Sequence record: OZ335964.1
DNA: 64,000 bases
Direction: 5' to 3' (one strand)
Origin: a phage
The first letter of the stretch is position 1; the number at the start of each line of letters is the position of its first letter. Below the pieces are notes generated by a model. The model was not told where the DNA came from. It did no database searches and was given only the letters and a program-made list of their open reading frames with translations. Of the stretch, positions 14,653 to 61,400 are shown piece by piece. A program made the translations under genes and the position numbers.

Positions 14653-14687
14653 GGGAGTATCTTACTACTCCCCTGTTCTGGTGTCAA
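14653..14687 (-). promoter_or_regulatory. early promoter/stem-loop cassette (PeSL-like)
   Basis: Minus strand reads TTGACA-N9-GGGAGTAGTAAGATACTCCC; -10-like TAAGAT inside a 7-bp inverted repeat; upstream of LprI-like gene. Confidence 0.55.
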
Positions 14688-15156: not shown

Positions 15157-15191
15157 GGGAGTATGTTACTACTCCCATTTCTTTACGTCAA
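15157..15191 (-). promoter_or_regulatory. early promoter/stem-loop cassette (PeSL-like)
   Basis: TTGACG-N9-GGGAGTAGTAACATACTCCC on minus strand. Confidence 0.55.
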
Positions 15192-15658: not shown

Positions 15659-15693
15659 GGGAGTATATTACTACTCCCATTATTCACTGTCAA
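15659..15693 (-). promoter_or_regulatory. early promoter/stem-loop cassette (PeSL-like)
   Basis: TTGACA-N9-GGGAGTAGTAATATACTCCC on minus strand. Confidence 0.55.
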
Positions 15694-32746: not shown

Positions 32747-33310
32747 TCACTGTATATTTTTACTTCTTTGCTTTCCTATCCAGATCCGTCTAACTGTTTC
32801 CGCATTAACATCATATATTTTTGCGATCTTTGCCGCAGATCCGGTTCCTTTTAGAGTTTTGATTTCTTCAATCTGATCTTTGGTTAATTTAGCCCAATGG
32901 TGTGCATCACCATAACACGAACTCAGACCGTGTGTCAATGCATGAATCTGATTTTCTGATTGTGTAACCCATTCAAGATTATATAGGTCATGGTTTCTTT
33001 TGTTTCCATCGATATGATTAACAAACGGCAAATTGTTTACGTTTGGTATAAACGCTTCTGCTTTTGCTCTGTGTATGTATATCGATAGAGATTTAACCCT
33101 AGACCCTGAACTAGTTTTATTACCGTAAGGATCTCTGATTCTTGCTACGGCGTATCCACCGCTTCTTCCGGCTACAGATTCTCTATAAATCTTTCCTGTT
33201 TTCTTGTTTCTAATGCGTCCATATGAGCTAACCTCGTAGCCTGGCATTTCGACGCCCATATAAACAAGGTCTTTCCATTCTTCTGGATGTTCGTCACAAT
33301 ACCGTTTCAT
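32747..33310 (-). CDS. HNH homing endonuclease (NUMOD4 + HNH_3 + C-terminal HTH)
   Basis: GYEVSSYGRIRN NUMOD4 motif; VNHIDGNKRNHDLYNLEWVTQSEN HNH; C-terminal HTH AAKIAKIYDVNAETVRRI. Confidence 0.8.
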   Translation of the reverse strand: MKRYCDEHPEEWKDLVYMGVEMPGYEVSSYGRIRNKKTGKIYRESVAGRSGGYAVARIRDPYGNKTSSGSRVKSLSIYIHRAKAEAFIPNVNNLPFVNHIDGNKRNHDLYNLEWVTQSENQIHALTHGLSSCYGDAHHWAKLTKDQIEEIKTLKGTGSAAKIAKIYDVNAETVRRIWIGKQRSKNIQ

Positions 33311-34254: not shown

Positions 34255-34890
34255 TCAAGCGAATGTAGAAAGCAAATGTTTTGTTTCTTTCAGTTGTCGT
34301 TCAAGATCTTTGCGTTTCTCTTTAAGTTGCATTTTAGCATTGTTTCGCTGTTTTTCAACATCTTTATCGATGTGCTTAGTCCAATTATCAATATCAGAAT
34401 AAGTTGGCATACCCAATTCTAAGCCTAATGCGGTTGGATACAGGGTAACAGTCCATAAACCGCTAATCTTCTTAAATAGGTCGGGATGTAGTGTACTACC
34501 TACATCTTCCGGTGTCAACTCTTTTTCTTCTTTCAGTGGTGGGATCTCGTCATATGGTTCCAGCGCATTTACTTTAATATCAGATACCTCATCAAAGAAT
34601 CCGCGTACATCCGCAGGAAATACACAGGCAATTTCCCAACCGTGATCACGCAGAGAAGTAATATTTTTCACTCCCCCACCATGCGTGATGATTGATGTGA
34701 CATTGCCATCAAGGTCCACCGAATTTACGAGAAATGGCTTATCGTCTGTCAGATCATTATAAAACTGTGCTTCGGCTGTAGTCATCTCCAGAAACAGATC
34801 TCGGATCGGACGACCATCAGGTGCGTTACCTTCCTTGAGAGTATAAAAGCGACTTACGATCCATTTTGGCGGTAAAGCATTAGCGATCAT
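34255..34890 (-). CDS. hypothetical protein (211 aa)
   Basis: ATG with AGGAG SD; no recognised motif. Confidence 0.55.
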   Translation of the reverse strand: MIANALPPKWIVSRFYTLKEGNAPDGRPIRDLFLEMTTAEAQFYNDLTDDKPFLVNSVDLDGNVTSIITHGGGVKNITSLRDHGWEIACVFPADVRGFFDEVSDIKVNALEPYDEIPPLKEEKELTPEDVGSTLHPDLFKKISGLWTVTLYPTALGLELGMPTYSDIDNWTKHIDKDVEKQRNNAKMQLKEKRKDLERQLKETKHLLSTFA

Positions 34891-34940: not shown

Positions 34941-36353
34941 TTAGAAAGTCATGTTATTTGCTAGCTCGTCGAGTTTTTCTCGTTTCTCGGCTTGCTGTGC
35001 GCTTTGTGGTTTAACTTGTGCATTCTCCTGATCTGCGATCTGGTTTGGAACTTCATACCAACGCTGATTTCCTTTTTTCACACCAACGTTAAACCGTGAA
35101 TAGTAGTTCTTATCGCCGTAACGAGACTTGATCTGCTTCATGAGTTGAACGCCCATTTTAGCAAGGTCTTCGGTTTCGATAACACCCAACATAAAATCGG
35201 CTGTAGCCGGAAGACCTGCTGATTCAGCGGTATCACTCATGTTAAGGTCTGACGCATCCCAACCCGCGCGGGTAGTCTGTGCCGCAGTCCAACCAACAAC
35301 ATCCCACTTAACAAAAAAACCTCGCAGTTCTTCCGCAATCGCCTTAACTAGTGTGTAACTATTTTCAGAGTATACACGCAAGCGAGACGATGCGCAAATC
35401 CCCAGATAGTCAACAATCACAACATCAGGTTTAAACTGTTTCTTGAGTCGCAATTCATTCATTAACGCCTCAAAGTGATTGGAGTTCGCGCCACCAGTCG
35501 GATACTGCTTGATCATCAATTTTCCAACCGGACGATCTCCGATCTTCTTATTCTTAACACGCTTCATACGTGCGGAATATTCCGCAAAAGAAACATTACC
35601 ATTATCCAATTCATCTAATGTAATGTCAAGCAAGTTTGCGTCAATACGTTTGGCTACGACATGCTCTGCCATCTCCATTGAGATATACAATACATCATAA
35701 CCACATTCCATATAATCCGCAGCAAGAGAACACAATCCAAGCGATTTACCAACATTTACACCAGCAAGCAACACATTTAGCGTTTTTCTTTCCGCCCCTC
35801 CTTTCGTGATTTTATTCAACATCGGCAGCTTAAACGGGATCTTATTCGCTTTAGTCTGATATAGCAAGAATCGTTTTTCAAAGTCATTAAACCAGTCATG
35901 ACCTACATCAGAATCAAACGTAATGGATAGTGCTTCCTGCATGATCTCAGGAATAGCTCCCTCACCCGGCAATTTCTTATTCTGTTTCTCTTTTGGTAGT
36001 TGTGCGTTCGCTTGAATCTCTAGCGCCCGTGACATTGCATTGTACATAGCGCGGTCGCGGATAAATTTTTCGGTTTCCTTCATTAACCAATCAAGGTCTT
36101 CCGGTGTATTCTCCAGCGAATCGAGAAGAGTTTTAGCCCCTTCATATGTTGTCTGATTGCCTCTCTCCTTGTCTAAAGCAATCTGTAATGCAGTTGGCGT
36201 AGGAATGTTGGAATATTCGTCTACGTGCTTTTTAATCAGCTTATAAATCAGTTTTTCTTCGTCTTCGGTGAAGTAGTCCGCTTTAAGATGAGGCCATACA
36301 TTCGTAAAGAATGCGCCATTGTAAATCAACTGTGAAAAGATAGTTTTAATCAT
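34941..36353 (-). CDS. 41: replicative DNA helicase gp41 (DnaB family)
   Basis: 470 aa; Walker A GVNVGKS and DnaB-like blocks; located between uvsX and primase as in T4. Confidence 0.9.
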   Translation of the reverse strand: MIKTIFSQLIYNGAFFTNVWPHLKADYFTEDEEKLIYKLIKKHVDEYSNIPTPTALQIALDKERGNQTTYEGAKTLLDSLENTPEDLDWLMKETEKFIRDRAMYNAMSRALEIQANAQLPKEKQNKKLPGEGAIPEIMQEALSITFDSDVGHDWFNDFEKRFLLYQTKANKIPFKLPMLNKITKGGAERKTLNVLLAGVNVGKSLGLCSLAADYMECGYDVLYISMEMAEHVVAKRIDANLLDITLDELDNGNVSFAEYSARMKRVKNKKIGDRPVGKLMIKQYPTGGANSNHFEALMNELRLKKQFKPDVVIVDYLGICASSRLRVYSENSYTLVKAIAEELRGFFVKWDVVGWTAAQTTRAGWDASDLNMSDTAESAGLPATADFMLGVIETEDLAKMGVQLMKQIKSRYGDKNYYSRFNVGVKKGNQRWYEVPNQIADQENAQVKPQSAQQAEKREKLDELANNMTF

Positions 36354-36667
36354 ACATAGCCCCCAACTACACGCATAACAAAGGTCTTGAGTTTATACCA
36401 GAAAGTTTCTTTTTTCAACTTTTCTTCTGCTTCTTTGATTTGCGCTGTTAACGCCTTAATGACGTGAGGATATACCACATCACGATCTGACGGCGTGGAG
36501 TAGTCGACCACAATACCTTTAGTGTCTGGATCGTATTCAACATTATGAATATAGACAATATGATGTTCTCCCTCTTCATCAACAATTATCAATTCCTGAA
36601 TAACTGTCTTCATTGCTTCTTGAATCAAGCCGTGTGCTTCTTCTAAACTGGTTGGTTTCTTATCCAT
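36350..36667 (-). CDS. hypothetical protein (105 aa) at the gene-40 position
   Basis: ATGA overlap with gene 41 start; GAGAGG SD; identity with gp40 not verified. Confidence 0.5.
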   Translation of the reverse strand: MDKKPTSLEEAHGLIQEAMKTVIQELIIVDEEGEHHIVYIHNVEYDPDTKGIVVDYSTPSDRDVVYPHVIKALTAQIKEAEEKLKKETFWYKLKTFVMRVVGGYV

Positions 36668-52312: not shown

Positions 52313-52571
52313 AAATCGCCCTCAGTTCTTTATAGCCTCCAATGTGCTCGTTGTCAATGAATATCTGGGGGTATACAAACCGGAGGCTCTTTGAGTTCAG
52401 CCTCCCCGCCAGTTCTTCAATCATATCACGGTCGGGAATAATGTCAACCCCGACCTGCTTGAATACTGGTTTAAGTGTATACGGAATACCCAGATCATCC
52501 AGTAGCTTCATTGCACTAATACAACCATAACAATGATAAGCCTCTTTCGGTATACCGTATATCTCGATCAT
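52302..52571 (-). CDS. nrdH: glutaredoxin-like protein (NrdH-like)
   Basis: 89 aa; CYGC active site and glutaredoxin C-terminal block PQIFIDNEHIGGY. Confidence 0.7.
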   Translation of the reverse strand: MIEIYGIPKEAYHCYGCISAMKLLDDLGIPYTLKPVFKQVGVDIIPDRDMIEELAGRLNSKSLRFVYPQIFIDNEHIGGYKELRAIYDY

Positions 52572-53044
52572 TTCTCAGCCTTTAATCTTTCTAGTTCTTC
52601 TTCCAGTTCCTTGATCCGTTGGTCACGTTCAAAGTCACGCTGTAACTTAGTGGCGAATACTCGTTTAAACTGATTGTAATCATCGATTTTAAACACTTCT
52701 TCTTCGCCATAGCGACGCACAGAAACTTCGTAGTTATTGAAGAATTGTTGCATCATTGCTTCGGATGATAGCTCTGCTGATACCACTTTAAAATATTGAT
52801 CTTCTGTAGGCGAAAACCAATTACAAGCATAAAGATAAACCTTTTCATTGTCTGGACACTGGTAAGCCTTACCATCGATTTCAATCACAGAAACATATTC
52901 AGGTATACTAGATGAATCAATAGCTAAGACTTTAAACGCACGGTCCCCGATAAACTCGGAGATCACACGATTCGCATCACTGGTTGCAAATGCTTTACGC
53001 GCTTGTTCGTTTTTCCACTGATAGGTCATACCAACAACAAACAT
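52568..53044 (-). CDS. paralogous family protein (158 aa), N-terminal beta-domain + helical tail
   Basis: Track ORF trimmed to M9 with GAGGATGG SD; GMTYQWKNEQARKAF...IEIDGKAY domain shared with neighbours. Confidence 0.5.
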   Translation of the reverse strand: MFVVGMTYQWKNEQARKAFATSDANRVISEFIGDRAFKVLAIDSSSIPEYVSVIEIDGKAYQCPDNEKVYLYACNWFSPTEDQYFKVVSAELSSEAMMQQFFNNYEVSVRRYGEEEVFKIDDYNQFKRVFATKLQRDFERDQRIKELEEELERLKAEK

Positions 53045-53045
53045 A

Positions 53046-53870
53046 TTACCATCCTCGCTCTTTACCAATCAAAAATTCAACTTCACGACGTTTAATGTCT
53101 TCTTGAAGGTCTTTAATCTTCTGGCGATCTTGCATGATTTCATCCATCTTGTCAAGTGCCGCAATGAAATCATCGAAACGTTCAAAGGTTTTACCTTCAT
53201 TTGCTTCGCCAAATTTAACCATTGTCAGTCCGTAACGACTACTAAACAGACGTTTCAACTGTCCAACGATCTTAGAATCAGTGGTTATAACTTCCAATTC
53301 TTCTACTTCACGAAAGAATTTTCTATCAGAATCAATAAACCAGCTAGTTCCTTTATGGTCTCTATCTTCGGTTGCGCTCATTAGAGTATGGTCTTTACCA
53401 TCAATTTCAATTACATCAATTTGCCCACATGGACTAACATTTTTAACAGTAAAAGGTCTATAATTTATTGCTCGTGCAATAACATAATTAAGGTTAGATA
53501 CGTTTTCAGCATAATGGCAGAAGTCGGTCATAGCATTCGCATCTTTCCAAGTATAAGTTTTACCAACTTCCCATTTCTGGGGAACTTCTTCAACTTCACG
53601 AAAGAATTTTCGATCGAATGGACTAAAGAAATATGTTGCAGTCCAAATGTCTTTTCCTGTAGCAGTTTTCGCCGTATGATAAACACCGTCTAGCTCTATT
53701 GCATTAATCCAACCGTTACCCTCGATCTCGATGATGGTAAATGGCTTGTCACCAATAGCTGCACTAATATCGCTGTTAAGTGGAGAAAGAACACCTTCTC
53801 CGTTAGTAATAAACTCAGTTTTAGCGTTTTCATCTTTCCAAGTGTAAGTTTTACCAATTTCCCATTTCAT
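53046..53870 (-). CDS. paralogous family protein (274 aa), two tandem domain repeats
   Basis: Two copies of KWE(I/V)GKTYTWKD...IE(L/I)DG...DRKFFREVEE within one ORF; AAGGGGA SD. Confidence 0.55.
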   Translation of the reverse strand: MKWEIGKTYTWKDENAKTEFITNGEGVLSPLNSDISAAIGDKPFTIIEIEGNGWINAIELDGVYHTAKTATGKDIWTATYFFSPFDRKFFREVEEVPQKWEVGKTYTWKDANAMTDFCHYAENVSNLNYVIARAINYRPFTVKNVSPCGQIDVIEIDGKDHTLMSATEDRDHKGTSWFIDSDRKFFREVEELEVITTDSKIVGQLKRLFSSRYGLTMVKFGEANEGKTFERFDDFIAALDKMDEIMQDRQKIKDLQEDIKRREVEFLIGKERGW

Positions 53871-53882
53871 AATATATTCCCC

Positions 53883-54347
53883 TTAACCGATTTTATCAAG
53901 TTCGTTTAATGCTTTCTCTGCTTCCTGTATAGCTTGCACCCTTTCCGGCATTTTGTCAAGAAAATCTTTCAACTCTTCAAAACTGGAGATATGACGCAAG
54001 GCGTTAGCACCGATAGCCGCATGTGATTTGCATTCAAAGCGAATTTTATAATTATCCATCGCCAACTTGAGAAGATCAATTAGTTTAGATTCTTCTGGAA
54101 TACTAATTTCTTCAAATCTGCTACGGTCGTGATCCAGAAACCAACAAGATAGACCTACATCGGTTGAACTCATATAAGTTCCATCATGAAGATATACAGA
54201 TCGCACGTATCCTTTTTTCGCATCAACCGACGCAACTTTAAACGGTAATCGCAGATATTTCAAATAATCAACATCATACCATTTAAAAAATTGGTTTGCA
54301 TCTTTTACATCTTTCCACGCATAGGTCTTACCAACTTCCCATTTCAT
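53883..54347 (-). CDS. paralogous family protein (154 aa)
   Basis: Track ORF trimmed to M6 (MKWEVGKTYAWKD...). Confidence 0.5.
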   Translation of the reverse strand: MKWEVGKTYAWKDVKDANQFFKWYDVDYLKYLRLPFKVASVDAKKGYVRSVYLHDGTYMSSTDVGLSCWFLDHDRSRFEEISIPEESKLIDLLKLAMDNYKIRFECKSHAAIGANALRHISSFEELKDFLDKMPERVQAIQEAEKALNELDKIG

Positions 54348-54351
54348 AATA

Positions 54352-54876
54352 TCATCTCTCATTTTTGATACGTGATTCTAATTGGATCATACGGTCTCGC
54401 GTTTGCTTGTATTCACGGATATTGCCGATCCGGCTAGGCATACCATCAAGCACGCTCTTAATCCCTTCTAGGGTAGTGATTTTAGCAATGCTATTATGTA
54501 ACCCCATCTTATCGATCAACTGAATGTCGTAGGCTTCCATAAGCAGACCCAGACGTTCTAAAGTTAGGTCTTCTTTTTCTTCCGATTCTGGAATCTTAGG
54601 TTCAATAGTAACTTCGGTAAAGAAACGACGCTCACCAGCCCAAAACCACACACCGGAAAAGCCAATAGGGGATTCTTTTAACGTCATAGAGTCGTAACCA
54701 CTGCCGATAATAGTAATTTCTCTAACATCACCATCATCGTCAATGTCTTCTACCCTAAACGGGCGACCAGCCAACAAGTCCACAATACGTCTGTTAATAG
54801 ACGACGAAAATTTAGTCAGTTCGGCTTTCGACGCTTCGCATTCAATCTTGTAAGTTTTACCAACTTCCCATTCCAT
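54352..54876 (-). CDS. paralogous family protein (174 aa)
   Basis: Track ORF starts at GTG; M4 (MEWEVGKTY...) has GAGGTGA SD. Confidence 0.5.
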   Translation of the reverse strand: MEWEVGKTYKIECEASKAELTKFSSSINRRIVDLLAGRPFRVEDIDDDGDVREITIIGSGYDSMTLKESPIGFSGVWFWAGERRFFTEVTIEPKIPESEEKEDLTLERLGLLMEAYDIQLIDKMGLHNSIAKITTLEGIKSVLDGMPSRIGNIREYKQTRDRMIQLESRIKNER

Positions 54877-54886
54877 AATAATCACC

Positions 54887-55390
54887 TCAAATAATTTTCA
54901 CTGGAATACTATTAACAATCTTGTATTGTACTTGATTGTCAGACCCCCGCCACGGCTTCTTCGTTGGCATATCTTTAATATAACGCCCATCGATGAACAT
55001 GTCAACTGATTCTACAATTTTTCTTTGCTCATCATTCAATTGGTCAAGGGTATAACCGGACCATAGCCAAATATCTTTATTTGGCATCCATGATTTTACC
55101 TCATCGATGATCCGCTGTACACCCTTTAAATTGCGTTTATACAGTGGATCACCACCTAAGAATGTTAGCCCCTGAATAAAATCAGGTCTAAGCAGATCCA
55201 GAATCAATCCCATTGTATCATCGGTGAATGGTTCCCCGTTCTTAGGATTGAGTAGGCTAGCATTAAAGCAACCATCACATGCGTGTGAACATCCGGTAAC
55301 GTAAAGGGAGACTCTCACTCCCTCACCGTTAACCATATCACAATCTTTAATATCGGCATAGCGTAGTTTGCCGTATGTATCAGAACTCAT
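54887..55390 (-). CDS. nrdG: anaerobic ribonucleotide reductase activating protein NrdG (radical SAM)
   Basis: CxxxCxxC cluster (GCSHACDGCFN) and glycine-rich SAM region; start set to M3. Confidence 0.85.
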   Translation of the reverse strand: MSSDTYGKLRYADIKDCDMVNGEGVRVSLYVTGCSHACDGCFNASLLNPKNGEPFTDDTMGLILDLLRPDFIQGLTFLGGDPLYKRNLKGVQRIIDEVKSWMPNKDIWLWSGYTLDQLNDEQRKIVESVDMFIDGRYIKDMPTKKPWRGSDNQVQYKIVNSIPVKII

Positions 55391-55532
55391 ATTCAATTAC
55401 CCCGAACTCGTTTACAATCTGCGCTTTATAGTAACCACCGCGAGATGCCAATAGATAAGCTGGGCTTAGGTATTCGCATTCACGGATTTCTACTTGTGCG
55501 TTTTCAGTTTCCCAAATCAGTAAAGTCCACAT
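55380..55532 (-). CDS. hypothetical small protein (50 aa)
   Basis: Track ORF trimmed to M26 with AGGAG SD; lies between the promoter cassette and nrdG. Confidence 0.4.
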   Translation of the reverse strand: MWTLLIWETENAQVEIRECEYLSPAYLLASRGGYYKAQIVNEFGVIEYEF

Positions 55533-55574
55533 ATTTGATTCTCCTGTAAAGTTGTATCTCGTCTTGATGAATAT

Positions 55575-55603
55575 AGTATAGGGGATCTCGCGATCCCCGT
55601 CAA
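55575..55603 (-). promoter_or_regulatory. early promoter/stem-loop cassette (variant)
   Basis: Minus strand reads TTGACG + GGGGATCGCGAGATCCCC palindrome + TATACT. Confidence 0.5.
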
Positions 55604-55607
55604 GCAT

Positions 55608-56135
55608 TTATTTTAAATTTTTTCGAATGTATTCAGACCATTCTCTGCCAGTAAGTTCGGTCCCATTCTGGAAACTGAAATACTCATACGGCATCGAGTC
55701 AAGATAAAACAGGATCATACATCGCGCCATATAATACCAATCACGATTAAAGTAAACTACGTTATCACCAGTACCATCAACCCCTTTATCATAACCATCG
55801 CGGGTACGGGCGACCCATTGAATAGTATCATTTTTCTCACGGATCGTAACAGGTTCCCAATATCCAGCACATCCAGCATGACCACACGAACAAGTAAGGA
55901 AATATTGACCTTTTGCTTTGTTGTCATCCCATTCACGATGGATTGGTTCGATCTCGTGAAACAGTGCTAAGCAATCATGATTATGCAACACTGGCTTACC
56001 ATCAATCAATGCATGGAATGTATACAAACGACCAGTAGACAAATAGCTATCCTCACGCTCAACCAGTTCAATAGCAATCTTTTTAGCTCGTTCTTTGTGT
56101 CGTTGTGCTTTACGCTTACGGTTTAATGATTTCAT
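55608..56135 (-). CDS. hypothetical Cys/His-rich protein (175 aa)
   Basis: Track ORF trimmed to M8 with GAGGTGA SD; HNHDC...CSCGHAGCAGYW cluster. Confidence 0.5.
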   Translation of the reverse strand: MKSLNRKRKAQRHKERAKKIAIELVEREDSYLSTGRLYTFHALIDGKPVLHNHDCLALFHEIEPIHREWDDNKAKGQYFLTCSCGHAGCAGYWEPVTIREKNDTIQWVARTRDGYDKGVDGTGDNVVYFNRDWYYMARCMILFYLDSMPYEYFSFQNGTELTGREWSEYIRKNLK

Positions 56136-56152
56136 ATTCACCTCACACATTA

Positions 56153-56695
56153 TCAAAGGTCGCGATATAGTACATTATGAAAATGAGAACTTGCATTACC
56201 AATATTGTAGATAATAAATTCTTCATCCGGCGCTTGCGCTACAAATTGAGTATGAGCAACCGCCACAACCTTAAAAATACGATCCGTGATCTTGTGTTTA
56301 ATTTCGGCTCCTACTTCCATAGGAACATATTCATGTGTTTCTGTTTCAGTCGCAAAACAGCCATCTTCTTCATAAGCACGAACAAATCGATCGCAATCAG
56401 TACGCTTAACAAATTCAAGAGTATACAATTCTCGTGAATTGTCGGTATAGACCAATACAGAATTATTATGATAGCGAATCACATACAGGTTATTATCATC
56501 GTCAATTACGCAAAAGCTACGGATTCCTTCGCCTATACTCCAGCAGATATTAACCACCGTTCCTCTAATAAAAAAACTTTCCTTTAAATTAAAACTAGTC
56601 AATGTGCTAGCGTGCATTTTAACAACAACACCATCGCCAATTTCCAGTTTACGAAGTTTAACTTCTTTGCTCAGTACACAAAACATCATCATCAT
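56153..56695 (-). CDS. hypothetical protein (180 aa)
   Basis: AGAGGA SD; begins with four ATG codons. Confidence 0.5.
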   Translation of the reverse strand: MMMMFCVLSKEVKLRKLEIGDGVVVKMHASTLTSFNLKESFFIRGTVVNICWSIGEGIRSFCVIDDDNNLYVIRYHNNSVLVYTDNSRELYTLEFVKRTDCDRFVRAYEEDGCFATETETHEYVPMEVGAEIKHKITDRIFKVVAVAHTQFVAQAPDEEFIIYNIGNASSHFHNVLYRDL

Positions 56696-56724
56696 GTTGT
56701 CCTCTCGTTGTTTTCGATGTGAGC

Positions 56725-56752
56725 ATTATACATTAGCTAATCATGTTGTCAA
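56725..56752 (-). promoter_or_regulatory. sigma70-type early promoter (TTGACA-N16-TATAAT)
   Basis: Consensus hexamers on minus strand, just after the nrdD terminator. Confidence 0.5.
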
Positions 56753-56764
56753 CACCCCAAAACG

Positions 56765-56790
56765 AAAAAGCCGACCCTTTCGGATCGGCT
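56765..56790 (-). terminator. rho-independent terminator after nrdD
   Basis: Minus-strand hairpin AGCCGAUCC-GAAA-GGGUCGGCU followed by UUUUUCGUUUU. Confidence 0.6.
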
Positions 56791-56795
56791 AAAAA

Positions 56796-58658
56796 TTACA
56801 TGTGCTTAACGCGGTTTACCATCTCGGAGTGTTTCCCGTGGTTAAATGGACGCAGATCAACAGATCCAAGATATCCACTAACGCGCCGGATAACATTCAT
56901 CTTTTCCAGATTGTCATTGCCGCAATCAGGACAAACAAAACCAGACTCGGTCGCTCTCATTTCCTTAGTAGATCCGCATACATGACATACATCAGAAGGA
57001 GTATTAACACCGAAGTAATGCAATTTATCCATTGCATAGTCTACTACAGTTTCAAGACCTTTCAGGTTGTTTTTCATGTCTGGGAACTCAACATAAGAGA
57101 TCATGCCACCGGACGCCAGCCAGTGATAATCTTTCTCAAAGTCGATTTTCTCAAACGGTGTGACTTTCCGGTCTACGTCAAGATGGAATGAGTTGGTGTA
57201 CCAGTCTTTATCGGTAGCACCCTTAACAATACCAAATTGCTCTCGATCCAGTCGATTAAATCGATAGCAAAGGCTCTCGGCTGGCGTACCGTAAAGACTA
57301 AACCCAAGTCCGGTTTCGTCCTTCCATTTTTCAGTATAATGACGCAAGATCTTAAGAATATGTTTACCGTATCGCTGCGCATCTTCCGAATCAAACGGAT
57401 GAACACCAAACAGGACGCTCAATACCTCATGTAAACCAATATATCCAAGAGAGATACTAGCGCGACCATCTTTCAACACTTCCAAAATTTCATCGTTTTG
57501 ATGAATACGGAAAAATGCACCTTCTGTATACAGCACAGGAGCAACATTGGCTTTAGCCCCTTTTAAAGCGTCTACGCGACTCATCAGCGCATCAAAGCAA
57601 ATAGGCATACGATTAGCTAGCTCTTGTTCGAATAGCTCAATTCTGCGCATTACAGACGCTTTACCAGCACGACGCGCGGCAATAAGAGCAATACGCGGAA
57701 GATTCAGAGTCACAACACCTAAGTTATTACGTCCGTCTAATACTTCTTCGCCTTTCTCATTATGCCACACACCCAGGAAGCTACGACAACCCATCGGGCT
57801 AACCGGAACACTAGATCCAGTGATACTACGGTTATTCTTCGCAGAGATATAATCAGGGTAAAGACGCTTACTAGAACATTCCAATGCAAGTTGCTTAATG
57901 TCGTAGTTCGGATCTTCCGGTTTAAGGTTTAATCCTTCTTCTAAGAACATCACCAGCTTAGGAAACACCGGAGTGATACCATCTTTACCTAAACCTTTAG
58001 TTCGAACGTTCAGGATCGCTTTCTGAATCAGTTTTTCTTCCCAGCTAGTACCCATACCAAAGGTTAAAGTCACAAAAGGCGTTTGACCGTTGGTAGAGAA
58101 CAAAGTGTTGATCTCATATTCCAACGCCTGATATCCGTCTAACGTTTCTTTTTCTGTCTTCTCTTGTGCATAGAGAGTATCAGCTTTGATTCCGTAGGTT
58201 TCGGCATCAGCAAGGTGTTTATGATATGTTTTCTCAACATACGGTGCTAACACCTGATCGATGTTTGCAATTGTGGTCCCGCCATATTGATGACTTGCCA
58301 CCTGTGCGATAATTTGAGCGGTTACAGCACAAGCAACGCCGATTGATTTCGGACTTTCGATTTGTGCACTACCCAATTTAAAACCATTCTCTAACATGTC
58401 TTTGAGATTAACAAGACAGCAGTTAGTAAACGGCATAGCGGGTGCATAATCCATATCATGATAATGAATATCACCGTCTACATGCGCTTTATAGATGTGC
58501 TCAGGTAACACGGTTTTAGCAATCTGTTTAGACACAGCACCAGCAATCAGATCTCGACGTGTCGGGAATGTTCGCGCGTCTTTGTTCGCGTTCTCTTTGC
58601 TTACTTCGTTTTCTTTACCCGTTGCGATCTCTGTAATGTCTTTGATTAGTTTTTCCAT
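56796..58658 (-). CDS. nrdD: anaerobic ribonucleoside-triphosphate reductase NrdD
   Basis: 620 aa; C-terminal glycyl-radical motif RRVSGYLGS and zinc ribbon CHVCGS..CPDCG; contiguous frame, no intron. Confidence 0.9.
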   Translation of the reverse strand: MEKLIKDITEIATGKENEVSKENANKDARTFPTRRDLIAGAVSKQIAKTVLPEHIYKAHVDGDIHYHDMDYAPAMPFTNCCLVNLKDMLENGFKLGSAQIESPKSIGVACAVTAQIIAQVASHQYGGTTIANIDQVLAPYVEKTYHKHLADAETYGIKADTLYAQEKTEKETLDGYQALEYEINTLFSTNGQTPFVTLTFGMGTSWEEKLIQKAILNVRTKGLGKDGITPVFPKLVMFLEEGLNLKPEDPNYDIKQLALECSSKRLYPDYISAKNNRSITGSSVPVSPMGCRSFLGVWHNEKGEEVLDGRNNLGVVTLNLPRIALIAARRAGKASVMRRIELFEQELANRMPICFDALMSRVDALKGAKANVAPVLYTEGAFFRIHQNDEILEVLKDGRASISLGYIGLHEVLSVLFGVHPFDSEDAQRYGKHILKILRHYTEKWKDETGLGFSLYGTPAESLCYRFNRLDREQFGIVKGATDKDWYTNSFHLDVDRKVTPFEKIDFEKDYHWLASGGMISYVEFPDMKNNLKGLETVVDYAMDKLHYFGVNTPSDVCHVCGSTKEMRATESGFVCPDCGNDNLEKMNVIRRVSGYLGSVDLRPFNHGKHSEMVNRVKHM

Positions 58659-58671
58659 TGTATCACCTATG

Positions 58672-58693
58672 AAAAAGCGGGATTTCTCCCGCT
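58672..58693 (-). terminator. stem-loop / terminator just upstream of nrdD
   Basis: Minus-strand hairpin AGCGGGA-GAAA-TCCCGCT followed by TTTTTC, then the nrdD SD. Confidence 0.5.
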
Positions 58694-58702
58694 CGTTGAT
58701 AG

Positions 58703-59197
58703 TTATTTTACCAGTTCTGCTAATTCTTTTTCCGCCGCTTCCAGTTCAGCTTTCAGTTGTTTGATCTCTTGTCGCTTCTTATTAGCGGCTTCCTGCTTAC
58801 TATTTCGGATAACCTGATCTAGATACAACTCCCAATCCTGAATATTTTTGATAATGTAGCCGTCAACGTTCAGAGCTTTAATATTAAGAACTTCTTCCAG
58901 CTTACTTAAAGAACGTTGTGTTTCTGGGAAGAAATAGTCATATTCACCTCGGTCAAACCAGTAGCTTATGCCAGCTTTATCTAAACGACGATGCAATTCA
59001 TAAAAATCTCTACCATCTTCGACGATGAGTTTGTCTACATCGCCATTACAGTTAACAGAGACTTTGAATCTAATATTATCAACCCCACCAAAAACATCAA
59101 TAAGGATAGTTCCGATCGTGTTATCCGCGCTTCCAGTATCCATAAAAGATTCTAGTTTTTCTTGATTAGTAACGTACCAAACATCTTGTTTCCACAT
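58703..59197 (-). CDS. hypothetical protein (164 aa) with coiled-coil C-terminus
   Basis: GAGAGGATTATATT-ATG leader identical to neighbouring paralogs; E/K-rich helical tail. Confidence 0.5.
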   Translation of the reverse strand: MWKQDVWYVTNQEKLESFMDTGSADNTIGTILIDVFGGVDNIRFKVSVNCNGDVDKLIVEDGRDFYELHRRLDKAGISYWFDRGEYDYFFPETQRSLSKLEEVLNIKALNVDGYIIKNIQDWELYLDQVIRNSKQEAANKKRQEIKQLKAELEAAEKELAELVK

Positions 59198-59221
59198 AAT
59201 ATAATCCTCTCGTTGTTAAGT

Positions 59222-59255
59222 GGGAGTATTATAGCATACTCCCTTCGCATGTCAA
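59222..59255 (-). promoter_or_regulatory. early promoter/stem-loop cassette (PeSL-like)
   Basis: Minus strand reads TTGACA-N6-GGGAGTATGCTATAATACTCCC; the -35 overlaps the upstream gene stop. Confidence 0.55.
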
Positions 59256-60430
59256 GCACTAACTTTTTTCTTTACTGCTTTCACCTTCTGGCGAATTGCT
59301 CGAATCTCTTCGATCTCTTTTTCAGTCTCTTTAACAATTTCTTTGCGATTCTGAATATCTGTATCGAGATTATCATCAAGTTTAGGCAGCATGTCAATCA
59401 AGAACTTTTTAAAGTCTTTCAGGTTTCTGATAACAGCACCTTCACCCATTACCGCCACCCCTACACCATCCGGCAGATCGCCAAACAGTTTAACCAGTTC
59501 AGACAGATGATCATGATCTTCTAGTGCTTCTTCCGGTTCAGATGGCAGTTCAACAAAGTTATAACGTTCATCATTGCTGATGATGTGATACCAGCAAAGC
59601 CCGAATGATTTCGGTGTATATTCTACACCATCAATTTCAACCGAGTCAACACTTCCATAATCATCTACTTTAGTTACCTTAAATCCTTGTCCCAGCTTTT
59701 GAACAATTTCAACAACATGACTTGATACAGTTTCAGCGGTAAACCAATATGGCAAATTATGCTGATTTGGCTTGTAGCGTTCACCTACTTTAAATCTCTG
59801 ACCAGCCGCTTGCATAGCATGAAATTGTTGTTTCGTGATTTCCGCGAAGTATTCAAATTCGCTACCATCAAACAAGCAATTCCATTGATCACAAAAACGA
59901 TCCGCCTTGACGGTTTCACCTTTCGCGGTGATCACGGTAGCTGATCCGTGCAATTCTTCTTCAACTAAAAAGCCATATTCGACAAAATCGACAAGTTTCA
60001 TGGCTTCTTTGTGCTCTGGATCATTCTCTCCCCAGAATCGCTTAAATTCTTGCAAACCTTCCGGGGTAAACGAATAACATTTACCTTTTTCAAAGTAAGT
60101 CGGCATTGCATCCTCTTTCTTGTTCATAGCTTCGTATGCCTCTTTTGAGATACGTTTAAAGTATTTGCGCTCATTGTGCATAATCATAGTAGCCCAATAA
60201 TAAACGATATCCTCAGCGGAATAAACTACATCTCCAGCTTCAATAGTAATAACATGACCGTGGTCATCTTTTTCTAATACTTTAAAGCCCTTTTCTACGA
60301 TTTCAGCAACCCGAATATGACCACGGCGCGAAGCATCGGTCAGAATAATTGAATAGCGAGAAAAGTCTAGAAACTCATCTTTACCGCCTTCACGGAATGC
60401 ATAGTAATGACCTTCAAAGAATTTAGCCAT
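59252..60430 (-). CDS. paralogous family protein (392 aa), three tandem domain repeats
   Basis: Three copies of the G..Y.F...GF.V...D..G.V domain, with NERKYFKRIS shared with the next paralog; helical tail. Confidence 0.55.
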   Translation of the reverse strand: MAKFFEGHYYAFREGGKDEFLDFSRYSIILTDASRRGHIRVAEIVEKGFKVLEKDDHGHVITIEAGDVVYSAEDIVYYWATMIMHNERKYFKRISKEAYEAMNKKEDAMPTYFEKGKCYSFTPEGLQEFKRFWGENDPEHKEAMKLVDFVEYGFLVEEELHGSATVITAKGETVKADRFCDQWNCLFDGSEFEYFAEITKQQFHAMQAAGQRFKVGERYKPNQHNLPYWFTAETVSSHVVEIVQKLGQGFKVTKVDDYGSVDSVEIDGVEYTPKSFGLCWYHIISNDERYNFVELPSEPEEALEDHDHLSELVKLFGDLPDGVGVAVMGEGAVIRNLKDFKKFLIDMLPKLDDNLDTDIQNRKEIVKETEKEIEEIRAIRQKVKAVKKKVSA

Positions 60431-60454
60431 AATATAATCCTCTCGTTGTTTAGA

Positions 60455-60490
60455 CGGGAGTATCTTACTACTCCCGTTTCATCATGTCAA
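60455..60490 (-). promoter_or_regulatory. early promoter/stem-loop cassette (PeSL-like)
   Basis: Minus strand reads TTGACA-N9-(C)GGGAGTAGTAAGATACTCCC(G). Confidence 0.55.
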
Positions 60491-61053
60491 GCGTTAAATG
60501 ACTTTTGGATCTCTTTCAGTTCAGCTACTTTATCGGCGCTGAATTTAGCGTAGGTATCATGTCGAATAATTTCACTTTCAAGAAAGGTTTCCAGCCGAGA
60601 TCTATTTTCAATAAGGAACTCTTTCAGGTCTTCCGCGTTCTTGATAAAGATTTTATTGTCGGTAATGTCATCTTCAATCGCAAAGGAGATAGAGCGAACT
60701 TTACCAAACAAGTTAATCAGATCTTCCAGAGATTCTTCTTTCTTAACTGGTTTCATTTCTTCAAACTGCTTTTTAGTGATGCGTTTAAAGTATTTGCGCT
60801 CGTTTGCAGCAATCAGAACAGATGCACCTTCATACTCATGAGTTTCTACCAGATACACACGACCCATCGCATCAACAGTGAGAACTTTAAAGCCGTTACA
60901 AAGCACGTCATACAAGAACTTATTATGTTGCGGACATCGTTTGATAAATTCCTCTGCGGACTCAGCATTACGGAAAGTGTAATAACGACCTCGTTCAAAA
61001 ACAGCATCAGTTGAAGACTTAGCCGGATACAATTTATACGTTTTCTGTACCAT
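60487..61053 (-). CDS. paralogous family protein (188 aa)
   Basis: Track ORF trimmed to M7 with GAGGATT SD; NERKYFKRITK block shared with the three-repeat paralog. Confidence 0.5.
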   Translation of the reverse strand: MVQKTYKLYPAKSSTDAVFERGRYYTFRNAESAEEFIKRCPQHNKFLYDVLCNGFKVLTVDAMGRVYLVETHEYEGASVLIAANERKYFKRITKKQFEEMKPVKKEESLEDLINLFGKVRSISFAIEDDITDNKIFIKNAEDLKEFLIENRSRLETFLESEIIRHDTYAKFSADKVAELKEIQKSFNA

Positions 61054-61067
61054 AATATAATCCTCTA

Positions 61068-61340
61068 TCATTTCACTAATTGAACAGCACGAAACAGAAT
61101 GCGGTCACACGGAAGAAGCATAAATTCCCAACGCGGATCAAAGTCTTTAGCGGTATATGTTTTCCCATCAACCGAGATTTCACTTACATAACCAATAGGT
61201 GACACTTTAAGAATAGTAAATCCATTCTTGATGACTTCGTAGGTATCTTTCAATCCTTCGTAGTCATCCTCTAGGAAGTCTTTACGTGCTTGCTCAGATT
61301 TAAAAACATAGGCCACACCGGATTTAAACATCTTACGCAT
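61068..61340 (-). CDS. paralogous family protein (90 aa), single domain
   Basis: EQARKDF ... FTILKV..YVSEISVDGKTY matches the family core; AAGGAG SD. Confidence 0.5.
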   Translation of the reverse strand: MRKMFKSGVAYVFKSEQARKDFLEDDYEGLKDTYEVIKNGFTILKVSPIGYVSEISVDGKTYTAKDFDPRWEFMLLPCDRILFRAVQLVK

Positions 61341-61365: not shown

Positions 61366-61400
61366 GGGAGTATTTTACTACTCCCATTTCATGCTGTCAA
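61366..61400 (-). promoter_or_regulatory. early promoter/stem-loop cassette (PeSL-like)
   Basis: Minus strand reads TTGACA-N9-GGGAGTAGTAAAATACTCCC. Confidence 0.55.

What the first reader, a model, noticed from the sequence alone, without database searches (positions are those of the whole stretch)
52568..61340. Expanded paralogous gene family flanking nrdG/nrdD
At least seven ORFs (52568-53044, 53046-53870, 53883-54347, 54352-54876, 59252-60430, 60487-61053, 61068-61340) share a ~90-aa N-terminal domain. Two motif variants occur: (M)KWE(V/I)GKTYxWKD...IE(I/L)DG and G..Y.F...GF.VL.VD..G.V...NERKYFKRI. The domain is present in 1, 2 or 3 tandem copies per protein, and most proteins end in an E/K-rich coiled-coil tail. 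Several share an identical leader (GAGAGGATTATATT-ATG) and their own promoter cassette. This looks like a rapidly diversifying phage accessory family (host takeover or anti-defence) of unknown function; I cannot assign it to any named family.
Basis: seen in the sequence. Interest (0 to 1): 0.75.

Follow-up and report, generated by a model that had tools for sequence, protein, structure and literature searches.

The report
Expanded GoF-like barrel protein family
An RB49-like T4-type coliphage carries nine early genes (twelve domain copies) of the recently described GoF/Frd.2/MotB.1 family of small beta-barrel proteins. This is a real, unusually large and mosaic expansion of a known family whose normal function is still unknown.

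Summary
The window is a Krischvirus (RB49-like, 96% nucleotide identity). All seven listed ORFs share a ~90-aa N-terminal domain present in 1, 2 or 3 tandem copies. Two further members were missed: 58703-59197 and 34255-34890 (RB49 'Dc2'). That gives nine genes and twelve domain copies, with none elsewhere in the RB49 genome.

The 'identical leader' is the phage's generic ribosome-binding region. The promoter cassettes are the known PeSL elements.

New here:
- the size of the expansion;
- helical, mostly coiled-coil tails;
- a 96-codon repeat-number polymorphism in gene B;
- sharp mosaicism, in which five barrel segments exist as deep alleles (30-67% nucleotide identity) next to 97-100% identical tails.

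Function remains unknown. I infer multivalent early host-takeover adaptors acting on mRNA-metabolism machinery.

The parts
52568..53044 (-). Gene A (158 aa): one GoF-like barrel (aa 1-92) plus a helical, E/K-rich tail
   Evidence: BLASTP to B at 5e-10. Family-HMM score of 95 bits (own training sequence) and 78 bits. Matches phrog_5347. Corresponds to RB49p048.
53046..53870 (-). Gene B (274 aa): two tandem barrels (B1 at nt 53580-53870; B2 at nt 53292-53579) plus a tail (53046-53291)
   Evidence: Two HMM domains of 97 and 101 bits. B2 is hypervariable between phages while B1 and the tail are 96-97% conserved. Phage E26 carries a 178-aa one-barrel form.
53298..53327 (.). 30-nt direct repeat (partner at 53586-53615; 93% identical; 288 nt = 96 codons apart) encoding DRKFFREVEE at the end of each B barrel
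   Evidence: Found by the repeat finder, family D2. The spacing equals the 274 vs 178 aa length difference between B here and B in phage E26, so it is the likely substrate for unequal recombination. This last step is an inference.
53883..54347 (-). Gene C (154 aa): one barrel (aa 1-88) plus a tail
   Evidence: HMM score 93 bits. BLASTP to D at 3e-13. Among ten phages the barrel is 71.5% identical on average while the tail is 99.7% identical.
54352..54876 (-). Gene D (174 aa): one barrel (aa 1-93), a disordered linker (aa 94-102) and a helical tail ending in a long helix (aa 146-173)
58703..59197 (-).
   Evidence: Iterated family HMM, trained without X, gives E 1.1e-6; the RB49 ortholog gives 1.5e-8. 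hhalign of X orthologs against the repeat profile: 81.7% probability, E 1e-5, full-length. After its own ortholog, Foldseek on the X model next hits a family member from phage PM2 and the B ortholog of phage 011D4, at E 2-5e-3. The X model is low-confidence (pLDDT 65).
59252..60430 (-). Gene E (392 aa; RB49 'frd.2'): three tandem barrels (nt 60128-60430, 59816-60106, 59525-59800) plus a tail (59252-59524)
   Evidence: Three HMM domains of 96, 89 and 96 bits. Matches phrog_8944 'goF mRNA metabolism modulator' at 7e-213. Conserved at 93-96% among Krischviruses.
60487..61053 (-). Gene F (188 aa): a 16-aa basic leader, one barrel (aa 17-100; pI 8.6) and a tail
   Evidence: HMM score 88 bits. BLASTP to E at 2e-8 over the barrel and 8e-8 over the tail. 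pI values.
61068..61340 (-). Gene G (90 aa): barrel only, no tail
   Evidence: HMM score 100 bits. Matches phrog_16115. pI 7.8.
34255..34890 (-). Gene H (211 aa; RB49 'Dc2'): a member outside the reported range, immediately downstream of helicase gene 41, with a barrel (aa 8-110) and a K/E-rich tail
   Evidence: Unit HMM E 2e-7; iterated HMM E 9e-16. Named Dc2 in RB49 and ECD7.
61366..61400 (-). PeSL early-promoter/stem-loop cassette upstream of G (and F)
   Evidence: TTGACA-N17-TAAAAT with the GGGAGTA/TACTCCC stem around the -10 box. The element class is described in PMC2839356.
60456..60490 (-). PeSL cassette upstream of E
   Evidence: The 78-nt cassette plus leader is 73% identical to the one upstream of G.
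59222..59255 (-). PeSL cassette upstream of X (and nrdD)
   Evidence: Perfect TTGACA-16-TATAAT, 12 of 12 matches, with the same stem.
56725..56790 (-). Terminator-like hairpin (56769-56790) followed by a perfect sigma-70 promoter (56725-56752) just after nrdD. This is the likely start of the transcript that runs through nrdG into D-C-B-A.
   Evidence: Found by scan_promoters_terminators. That this unit reaches genes A-D is inferred from tight gene spacing and the absence of another cassette.

Best explanation
SHOWN. The region holds a lineage-specific expansion of the GoF/Frd.2/MotB.1 family of T4-type phage early proteins. There are nine genes and twelve copies of a ~90-aa N-terminal SH3-like ('LSm-like') small beta-barrel. 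Each gene except G also has a linker and a helical C-terminal tail that ends in an E/K-rich helix. Eight genes flank nrdD/nrdG and one follows gene 41. Three are preceded by sigma-70-type PeSL promoter cassettes.

The positions conserved across the family are almost all core hydrophobics and glycines: F/W2, G5, Y8, F19, F39, V41, G48, V50, I53, F81. The only well-conserved polar positions are N27 and E77.

Among Krischviruses, five barrel-coding segments occur as 2-3 deep alleles that are swapped as modules, while the adjoining tails stay 92-99.7% identical at the amino-acid level.

INFERRED (about 0.3 for the specific mechanism). The proteins are abundant early host-takeover adaptors.
- The barrel is a scaffold whose variable surface recognises a host or phage component of mRNA metabolism. 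This is more likely a protein partner (RNA polymerase, Rho, degradosome or ribosome-associated) than RNA itself for the acidic majority. RNA is a possible ligand for the few neutral or basic barrels (F, G, C).
- The coiled-coil tail and the tandem barrels make the binding multivalent.
- The net effect would be altered stability or read-through of particular transcripts, as seen for the T4 GoF(D25Y) mutant.
- Barrel allele swapping reflects selection for different target variants across hosts.
For: Family identity:
- Repeat profile vs T4 GoF: 38 bits, E 8.5e-11, covering residues 4-92. Vs Frd.2: 20.8 bits, E 2e-5.
- Iterated profile vs MotB.1: E 2.6e-6, with MotB.1 not in the training set.
- PHROG links to goF families.

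Fold:
- AF2 barrel pLDDT 77-92.

Distribution:
- Only 87 hits among 1.84 billion representative proteins. About 70 are small proteins with the domain at the N-terminus.
- 70 BFVD matches at E<=1e-3; the 50 listed are phage proteins, nearly all from T4-like phages.

Early expression: PeSL promoters. GoF is an abundant early protein, about 20,000 per cell.

Link to mRNA: GoF(D25Y) stabilises gene 41 5'UTR reporter RNA.

Scaffold with a variable surface: conservation table. Barrels are mostly acidic, pI 4.5-5.1.

Specificity module: barrel vs tail divergence and step-like identity profiles.

Suppressor positions: T4 goF suppressor sites D25 and G84 fall in variable columns. An aromatic residue next to or at the D25 column, and K/R at the G84 column, are the natural state in about half of the window's barrels.
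Against: - No experiment bears on any of these nine proteins.
[quoted passage not shown] The family's normal activity is therefore unknown, and the mRNA link rests on one gain-of-function mutant.
- GoF pull-downs recovered mainly GoF itself, not a partner.
- Coiled-coil oligomerisation is inferred from composition and predicted helices only. AF3 gave no confident homomultimers for the T4 proteins.
- The neighbouring unrelated ORFs 55608-56135 and 56153-56689 are also hypervariable, so barrel variability may partly reflect the plastic region rather than target-driven selection.
- The phages compared were chosen because megablast fragmented at this locus, which inflates mean divergence.
Confidence: 0.5

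Rival explanations
1. The proteins are true Hfq/Sm-like RNA chaperones. The barrels would assemble, helped by tandem fusion and coiled-coil tails, into ring-like oligomers that bind phage or host RNAs directly and protect them from decay.
For: - Kim et al. place Hfq among the structural relatives and show that GoF(D25Y) stabilises RNA independently of Hfq.
- Tandem barrels and oligomerising tails could mimic a multimeric Sm ring.
- Barrels F (pI 8.6) and G (pI 7.8) are not acidic.
- Basic residues at the column of the G84R suppressor are common.
Against: - Nine of twelve barrels are acidic, with net charge -3 to -9.
- Wild-type GoF does not stabilise the reporter RNA.
- AF3 gave no confident hexamers for the T4 proteins.
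- There is no conserved basic or aromatic ligand-binding position across the family.
Confidence: 0.15
2. The proteins are anti-defence or host-factor inhibitors unrelated to mRNA metabolism. Each barrel allele would neutralise a different host protein, for example a nuclease or a defence sensor, in the manner of a decoy or plug.
For: - Deep allelic polymorphism confined to the presumed binding module, with alleles shuffled among phages.
- Location in a hyperplastic region with PeSL cassettes.
- Acidic surfaces, as in many DNA-mimic or inhibitor proteins (general knowledge).
- Dispensability in laboratory strains.
Against: - No link to any known anti-defence protein or defence system; the only PADLOC hit is an insignificant 15.8-bit match.
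- The only genetics in the family (goF suppressors of rho alleles) points to transcripts.
- E, F and G barrels are conserved rather than diversifying.
- Unrelated neighbouring ORFs are equally variable.
Confidence: 0.2
3. The proteins are accessory factors of the anaerobic ribonucleotide reductase, because eight of the nine genes flank nrdD/nrdG.
For: The arrangement around nrdG and nrdD is conserved in all 59 Krischvirus records. D-C-B-A appear to be co-transcribed with nrdG.
Against: - T4 homologues sit elsewhere: goF near gene 39, frd.2 near gene 32, motB.1 near motB.
- One member follows gene 41.
- Arbiol et al. list nrdD among the genes associated with PeSLs and with high plasticity.
- The barrels are hypervariable while NrdD and NrdG are 99% conserved.
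Confidence: 0.03
4. The shared motifs are chance or compositional similarity among unrelated small ORFs.
For: Individual pairwise identities are low (15-35%). The profile also picks up a dozen giant repeat proteins in the large database.
Against: - Pairwise bit scores of 42-53, with full-length collinear alignments.
- Apart from the members themselves, the best six-frame ORF in the window scores E 0.17.
- A common predicted fold.
- The giant hits are partial matches to Cna-B/VCBS-type strand repeats.
Confidence: 0.01

Closest known systems
T4 GoF (ComC-alpha), 141 aa
   Same: The N-terminal barrel is homologous: 38 bits to the window profile over residues 4-92. Both are early genes, acidic proteins, and built as barrel plus linker plus small C-terminal domain. 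Both are restricted to T4-like phages.
   Different: GoF has a single barrel, a short beta-alpha C-terminal domain and no coiled coil. It sits next to gene 39/cef, a position that is empty in RB49. GoF lacks the aromatic residue next to or at column 23 and the basic residues at columns 78/79 that many window barrels have. Its suppressor mutations D25Y and G84R introduce exactly those residue types.
T4 Frd.2 (Pfam PF03197 FRD2) and T4 MotB.1
   Same: Barrel homology is detected by profile: Frd.2 at 20.8 bits rising to 47.9 bits after iteration, and MotB.1 at E 2.6e-6 after iteration. RB49's annotators named gene E 'frd.2'.
   Different: Window proteins do not reach the Pfam FRD2 threshold: the best is 17.5 bits against a cutoff of 29. 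RB49 has no family member at the T4 frd.2 or motB.1 positions. The tails differ.
Two-barrel goF genes of Karamvirus-like phages (e.g. Edwardsiella phage PEi20 goF)
   Same: Tandem duplication of the barrel within one protein (P0095-type representatives).
   Different: Those genes sit at the T4 goF-syntenic site and keep a GoF-like C-terminal domain (..RLxAIxxL..FK). The window proteins have coiled-coil tails, up to three barrels, and form a nine-gene array.
Hfq / Sm (LSm) proteins
   Same: Small bent five-stranded beta-barrel topology, according to PMC12152347.
   Different: No Sm1/Sm2 sequence motifs and no Pfam match. Two helices are inserted between strands 1 and 2. Most barrels are acidic. 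No ring assembly has been shown.
FeoA / SH3-like domains (CATH 2.30.30.90), Tudor and KOW domains
PeSL (promoter-early stem-loop) cassettes of RB49/phi1
   Same: The three cassettes upstream of G, E and X have the -35 and -10 boxes, a G/C stem overlapping the -10 box, a Shine-Dalgarno sequence and a start codon, as described for PeSLs.
   Different: None found; these are ordinary members of the class. Their possible role in duplicating the family is my inference.

Membership tests
GoF/Frd.2/MotB.1 'LSm-like fold' family (Kim et al. 2025, PMC12152347) | [quoted passage not shown] | tested here: met
   Window repeat profile vs GoF: 38 bits, E 8.5e-11. Vs Frd.2: 20.8 bits, E 2e-5. Iterated profile vs MotB.1: E 2.6e-6. 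All alignments are full-length.
GoF/Frd.2/MotB.1 'LSm-like fold' family (Kim et al. 2025, PMC12152347) | Predicted bent antiparallel beta-sheet / SH3-like barrel whose closest PDB relatives are FeoA-type SH3 domains | tested here: met
GoF/Frd.2/MotB.1 'LSm-like fold' family (Kim et al. 2025, PMC12152347) | Barrel joined by a flexible linker to a variable C-terminal domain | tested here: met
   D has pLDDT below 50 at residues 94-102, followed by helices. X has pLDDT below 50 at residues 92-111, followed by a 45-residue helix. G is a barrel-only exception.
GoF/Frd.2/MotB.1 'LSm-like fold' family (Kim et al. 2025, PMC12152347) | Early (sigma-70-dependent) expression | tested here: inconclusive
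   Consensus sigma-70 PeSL promoters lie upstream of G, E and X, and after nrdD. No transcript data were available.
GoF/Frd.2/MotB.1 'LSm-like fold' family (Kim et al. 2025, PMC12152347) | Restricted to T4-like phages | tested here: met
   About 70 true hits among 1.84 billion representatives, all small proteins of the same architecture. BFVD matches come from T4-like phages of many enterobacterial and Aeromonas hosts. A few structural matches are to phAPEC8-type phages; I classify those from my own knowledge.
GoF/Frd.2/MotB.1 'LSm-like fold' family (Kim et al. 2025, PMC12152347) | Post-transcriptional effect on mRNA level (known only for GoF D25Y) | not testable with these tools
   Needs a reporter or RNA-decay assay.
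Pfam PF03197 (FRD2) | Score at or above the gathering threshold of 29 bits | tested here: not met
   The best window protein (E) scores 17.5 bits, E 0.007. T4 Frd.2 scores 133 bits. T4 GoF and MotB.1 have no Pfam family either.
Hfq / Sm (LSm proper) | Sm1/Sm2 sequence motifs, i.e. a match to the Pfam LSM or Hfq models | tested here: not met
Hfq / Sm (LSm proper) | Hexameric or heptameric ring assembly | not testable with these tools
   Only monomer prediction was available. AF3 multimers of the T4 proteins were not confident.
FeoA (SH3-like, iron transport) | Sequence membership in FeoA and an association with feoB or metal regulation | tested here: not met
PeSL regulatory cassettes (Arbiol et al. 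2010) | Sigma-70 -35/-10 boxes plus an adjacent or overlapping G/C stem-loop, a Shine-Dalgarno sequence and a start codon, repeated in hyperplastic regions of RB49-type genomes | tested here: met
   Six cassettes of the form TTGACA-N8-9-GGGAGTA..TAnnATACTCCC were found, three of them in the family region.

The most novel reading that the evidence does not exclude
The Krischvirus array would be a modular 'specificity panel'. A constant oligomerising tail would carry interchangeable SH3-like barrels, each allele tuned to a different variant of a host RNA-metabolism or defence protein. The barrels would be swapped between co-circulating phages by recombination at conserved domain edges. This would be a domain-level counterpart of receptor-binding-protein cassette exchange, but for intracellular host takeover.

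As a corollary, some natural barrels already carry an aromatic residue and/or K/R at the T4 goF suppressor positions: C, D, B2, E1 and E2 (aromatic), and D, B1, B2, E1 and F (basic). These would have, as their normal function, the mRNA-stabilising activity that T4 GoF acquires only by mutation.
Probability: 0.15. Interest if true: 0.7.

Novelty: new variant of a known kind. Interest (0 to 1): 0.4.

Why it matters
What GoF does has been an open question since goF (comC-alpha) mutations were isolated as suppressors of E. coli rho alleles. The only molecular handle is one gain-of-function mutant.

This phage lineage devotes nine genes (1,805 codons, about 5.4 kb) to the family. It offers twelve natural barrel variants, including tandem and tail-less forms. 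It also offers deep allele pairs that differ only in the barrel. That is a ready-made comparative panel for finding the ligand and for testing whether the barrel sets specificity.

The step-like mosaicism also gives a clean example of domain-level module exchange inside small phage accessory genes. Even so, the family, the fold and the promoter cassettes are already published, so the result refines existing knowledge rather than adding a new kind of system.

Tried and rejected
- Curated libraries gave no significant match for any of the nine proteins: Pfam, NCBIfam, PADLOC. The only family-relevant weak hit was FRD2 at 17.5 bits.
- A PDB sequence-profile search gave only chance hits, with E>=0.008 to EF-hand proteins.
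- The word-indexed homologue searches returned only close Krischvirus orthologues. They were used for alignments, not for reach.
- Twelve giant proteins in the exhaustive search (for example 797, 4074 and 5094 aa) were rejected as spurious. They gave short partial matches repeated many times. The two I inspected (P0079, 797 aa; P0132, 466 aa) are Cna-B-like and VCBS-like strand repeats.
- A profile of the A-F tails does not detect the tails of X or H. I therefore claim similar architecture for those tails, not homology.
- Gene conversion between paralogues as the source of barrel alleles was rejected. Alleles at one locus are closer to each other (44-80%) than to other loci, with the partial exception of B2, whose rarer allele is as close to B1 (43%) as to the other B2 allele (44%).
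- Positive selection as the sole cause of divergence was rejected: dN/dS is 0.25-0.45 and dS is raised 5-10-fold.
- Further copies elsewhere in the genome: none in RB49 50-143 kb. Two partial hits at E 0.008 and 0.04 were not counted.
- tblastn searches for the metagenomic three-barrel (P0084) and two-barrel (P0086) representatives in GenBank phages found nothing.
- The 'identical leader' was rejected as a family mark.

Full report
**Identity of the window.** The 8.8-kb region is 96% identical at the nucleotide level to Escherichia phage RB49 and matches 59 Krischvirus records. All genes discussed lie on the minus strand. RefSeq calls two of them 'goF mRNA metabolism modulator', and the original annotators called one of them 'frd.2'.

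**Checking the observation.**
- All-vs-all BLASTP connects the seven proteins through collinear alignments of 42-53 bits, for example C-D 3e-13, B-C 2e-11, A-B 5e-10 and E-F 2e-8.
- I cut the proteins into ten ~90-aa units and built a profile. The units score 88-101 bits, but these are the profile's own training sequences. Among the 631 six-frame ORFs of the window, the best unrelated ORF has E 0.17.
- The numbers of units per protein (1, 2, 3) and both motif variants are as described.
- The alignment has invariant Y, F and F, and near-invariant G, F and G.
- The similarity is visible in DNA as well. There are four copies of the 69-nt domain start at 67-77% identity, and a 30-nt repeat at 93% identity.

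**Two members were missed.**
- ORF 34255-34890 (211 aa, RB49 'Dc2', directly downstream of helicase gene 41) scores E 2e-7 with the first profile and 9e-16 with an iterated one.
- ORF 58703-59197 (X, 164 aa) lies between nrdD and gene E and carries the same leader and promoter cassette.
  - It scores only E 0.23 with the first profile. With the family-wide profile, which was trained without it, it scores E 1.1e-6, and its RB49 orthologue scores 1.5e-8.
  - hhalign of an X-orthologue alignment against the repeat alignment gives 81.7% probability (E 1e-5) over the whole domain.
  - A low-confidence AF2 model of X (pLDDT 65) has the same order of elements: beta, two helices, beta, beta.
  - After its own orthologue, the next Foldseek hits in BFVD are a family member from phage PM2 and the B orthologue of phage 011D4 (E 2-5e-3).
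- Scanning the remaining 93 kb of RB49 finds no further copy.
- The total is nine genes and twelve domain copies, all inside this window.

**Leader and promoters.**
- The 'identical leader' AGAGGATTATATTATG is exact upstream of E, F and X, but also upstream of an unrelated gene at 36665. Twelve sites match it with at most two mismatches, against 0.07 expected by chance. It is the phage's general ribosome-binding region.
- The promoter cassettes upstream of G, E and X have the form TTGACA, spacer, GGGAGTA..TAnnATACTCCC. Three more lie at 14.6-15.7 kb.
- They fit the PeSL elements described for RB49 and phi1. PeSLs are strong sigma-70 early promoters fused to a stem-loop, enriched in hyperplastic regions, and explicitly associated with nrdD.
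- A terminator-like hairpin followed by a perfect consensus promoter sits just after nrdD. It probably starts the transcript that continues through nrdG into D-C-B-A. That last step is an inference.

**What the family is.**
- PHROGs links all members to each other and to three 'goF mRNA metabolism modulator' families.
- The window profile matches the N-terminal domain of T4 GoF (38 bits, E 8.5e-11, residues 4-92) and of T4 Frd.2 (20.8 bits, E 2e-5). After one iteration it matches T4 MotB.1 (E 2.6e-6), which was not in the training set.
- Kim et al. 2025 (PMC12152347) united exactly these three proteins as a Tevenvirinae family with an N-terminal 'LSm-like' five-stranded barrel, a linker and variable C-terminal domains.
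- My AF2 model of D agrees. It has a confident barrel (pLDDT 77-92), a disordered linker at residues 94-102, and a helical tail ending in a 28-residue helix.
- There are no Pfam, NCBIfam or PADLOC matches. Pfam FRD2 covers only Frd.2-type proteins.

**Distribution.**
- An exhaustive profile search of 1.84 billion representative proteins finds only 87 hits. About 70 are small proteins (76-392 aa) with the domain at the N-terminus. A dozen are giant proteins matched by short partial stretches repeated many times; the two I inspected are strand-repeat proteins.
- The true hits fall into three tail types:
  - coiled-coil tails like those here;
  - an alpha/beta tail ending '..VEIYS..';
  - a GoF-like beta-alpha tail.
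- Two-barrel and three-barrel proteins occur in other lineages too. Two-barrel genes are annotated as goF at the T4-syntenic position in PEi20 and Karamvirus-like phages.
- BFVD structural matches come from T4-like phages of many hosts.
- Tandem barrels are therefore not unique to this phage. A nine-gene array is far above T4's three single-barrel genes. [quoted passage not shown]

**Is it 'rapidly diversifying'?** I compared the locus in the window and nine other Krischviruses. The nine were chosen because megablast fragmented there, so mean divergence is biased upward.
- NrdD, NrdG and NrdH are 98.7-99.5% identical, with dS 0.07-0.09.
- The barrels of A, B2, C, D and X average 71-79% identity (minimum 38-56%), with dS 0.44-0.73 and dN/dS 0.25-0.45.
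- The tails of these same genes are 92-99.7% identical.
- The barrels of E, F and G are conserved at 90-96%.
- Nucleotide identity along the genes behaves as a step function: 30-67% across the barrel, then 97-100% from the linker onward. In B the pattern is 97-100% (B1), 27-57% (B2), 97-100% (tail).
- Each variable barrel falls into two or three deep allele classes. The classes are distributed incongruently among phages. They are generally closer to the other allele at the same locus than to paralogues.
- I read this as module replacement by recombination among old alleles under purifying selection. It is neither runaway point mutation nor intragenomic gene conversion.
- The neighbouring unrelated ORFs 55608-56135 and 56153-56689 are also variable, so part of the signal belongs to the plastic region as a whole.
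- Repeat number also varies. Phage E26 has a 178-aa, one-barrel B. The 96-codon difference equals the spacing of the 30-nt direct repeat that encodes DRKFFREVEE at the end of each B barrel.
- A metagenomic protein, P0043, is a chimera of a D-type barrel start and a B-type tail.

**Clues to mechanism.**
- Over 93 barrel instances, the conserved columns are almost all hydrophobic or glycine. The only well-conserved polar positions are N27 and E77. This is what one expects of a scaffold with a variable surface.
- Nine of the twelve barrels are acidic (pI 4.5-5.9). C, G and F are neutral to basic.
- The two T4 goF suppressor sites, D25 and G84, fall in variable columns next to conserved core residues.
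- An aromatic residue next to or at the D25 column is the natural state in five of eleven aligned window barrels. A lysine or arginine at the G84 column is likewise natural in five of eleven. Nine of eleven have arginine one position earlier.
- Published data for the T4 proteins:
  - GoF is abundant and early. GoF and MotB.1 run as monomer and dimer.
  - The genes are dispensable in the laboratory.
  - Only the D25Y mutant stabilises a gene-41 leader reporter RNA, and it does so independently of Hfq.
  - A CRISPRi-ART screen scored T4 frd.2 as the only fitness gene of unknown function in T4 (PMC11879866).

**Best reading.**
- Identity, at about 0.9 confidence: an expanded, architecturally elaborated branch of the GoF/Frd.2/MotB.1 family.
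- Mechanism, at about 0.3 and inferred: abundant early adaptors. The barrel surface would bind a component of host or phage mRNA metabolism, more probably a protein for the acidic majority. The coiled-coil tails and tandem barrels would provide multivalency. Barrel allele exchange would track target variation.
- Rivals:
  - direct Hfq-like RNA chaperones (0.15);
  - anti-defence inhibitors unrelated to RNA (0.2);
  - accessory factors of the anaerobic reductase (0.03);
  - chance similarity (0.01).

**Novelty.**
- Already published: the genes, the family, the fold and the promoter cassettes.
- Not found in the searchable literature: that seven further RB49-type 'hypothetical proteins' belong to the family; the size of the array; the coiled-coil tail type; the repeat-number polymorphism and its likely cause; and the domain-sharp allelic mosaicism.
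- I rate this a new variant of a known kind, of moderate interest. Its main value is as a natural variant panel for solving the long-standing GoF question.

Noticed in passing
window 32747-33310 (-): A 187-aa ORF with an HNH-like motif (..HIDGNKRNH..NLEWVTQSEN..) lies between primase gene 61 and a 67-aa ORF. RB49 has no gene at this position, so this looks like an extra homing-endonuclease-type insertion in this phage.
   Followed up: partly
window 55608-56135 and 56153-56689 (-): The two unrelated ORFs between nrdG and nrdD are also hypervariable among Krischviruses. Mean amino-acid identity is 75.7% and 89.1%, and dS is 0.82 and 0.30, against 99% identity for NrdD and NrdG.
   Followed up: partly
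window 14653-14687, 15157-15191, 15659-15693 (-): Three more PeSL promoter/stem-loop cassettes with the same GGGAGTA..TACTCCC stem occur about 500 bp apart, each in front of a small ORF.
   Followed up: no
L010 (phage JSE) 4544-7166: In phage JSE, nrdD is split in two by an inserted homing endonuclease gene. The window's nrdD is intact.
   Followed up: no
window 34255-34890 (-), next to gene 41 (34941-36353): The family member Dc2 lies immediately downstream of helicase gene 41. In T4, the gene 41 mRNA is the transcript whose level is changed by GoF(D25Y). This may be coincidence.
   Followed up: no
protein P0043 (metagenomic, 154 aa) vs window genes D and B: P0043 is a chimera. The first ~45 residues match the D barrel, and the rest matches the end of a B-type barrel plus the B tail. 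This is evidence of recombination between paralogues in a related phage.
   Followed up: partly
window 56725-56790 (-): A strong terminator-like hairpin (9-bp stem, T-run) is followed directly by a perfect TTGACA-16-TATAAT promoter just after the nrdD stop codon. This looks like a PeSL of the 'stem upstream of the -35 box' type.
   Followed up: no
BFVD matches K7QK92 (phAPEC8) and A0A494RBB4 (vB_EcoM-Ro121lw): Structural matches at E 4e-6 to 7e-6 to proteins of phAPEC8-type myoviruses suggest the barrel family may extend beyond Straboviridae. The classification of these phages rests on my own knowledge.
   Followed up: no
literature: T4 frd.2: T4 frd.2 was the only 'Fit' gene of unknown function in a T4 CRISPRi-ART screen (PMC11879866). 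In contrast, an frd.2 amber mutant plated normally in PMC12152347. The discrepancy is unresolved.
   Followed up: no
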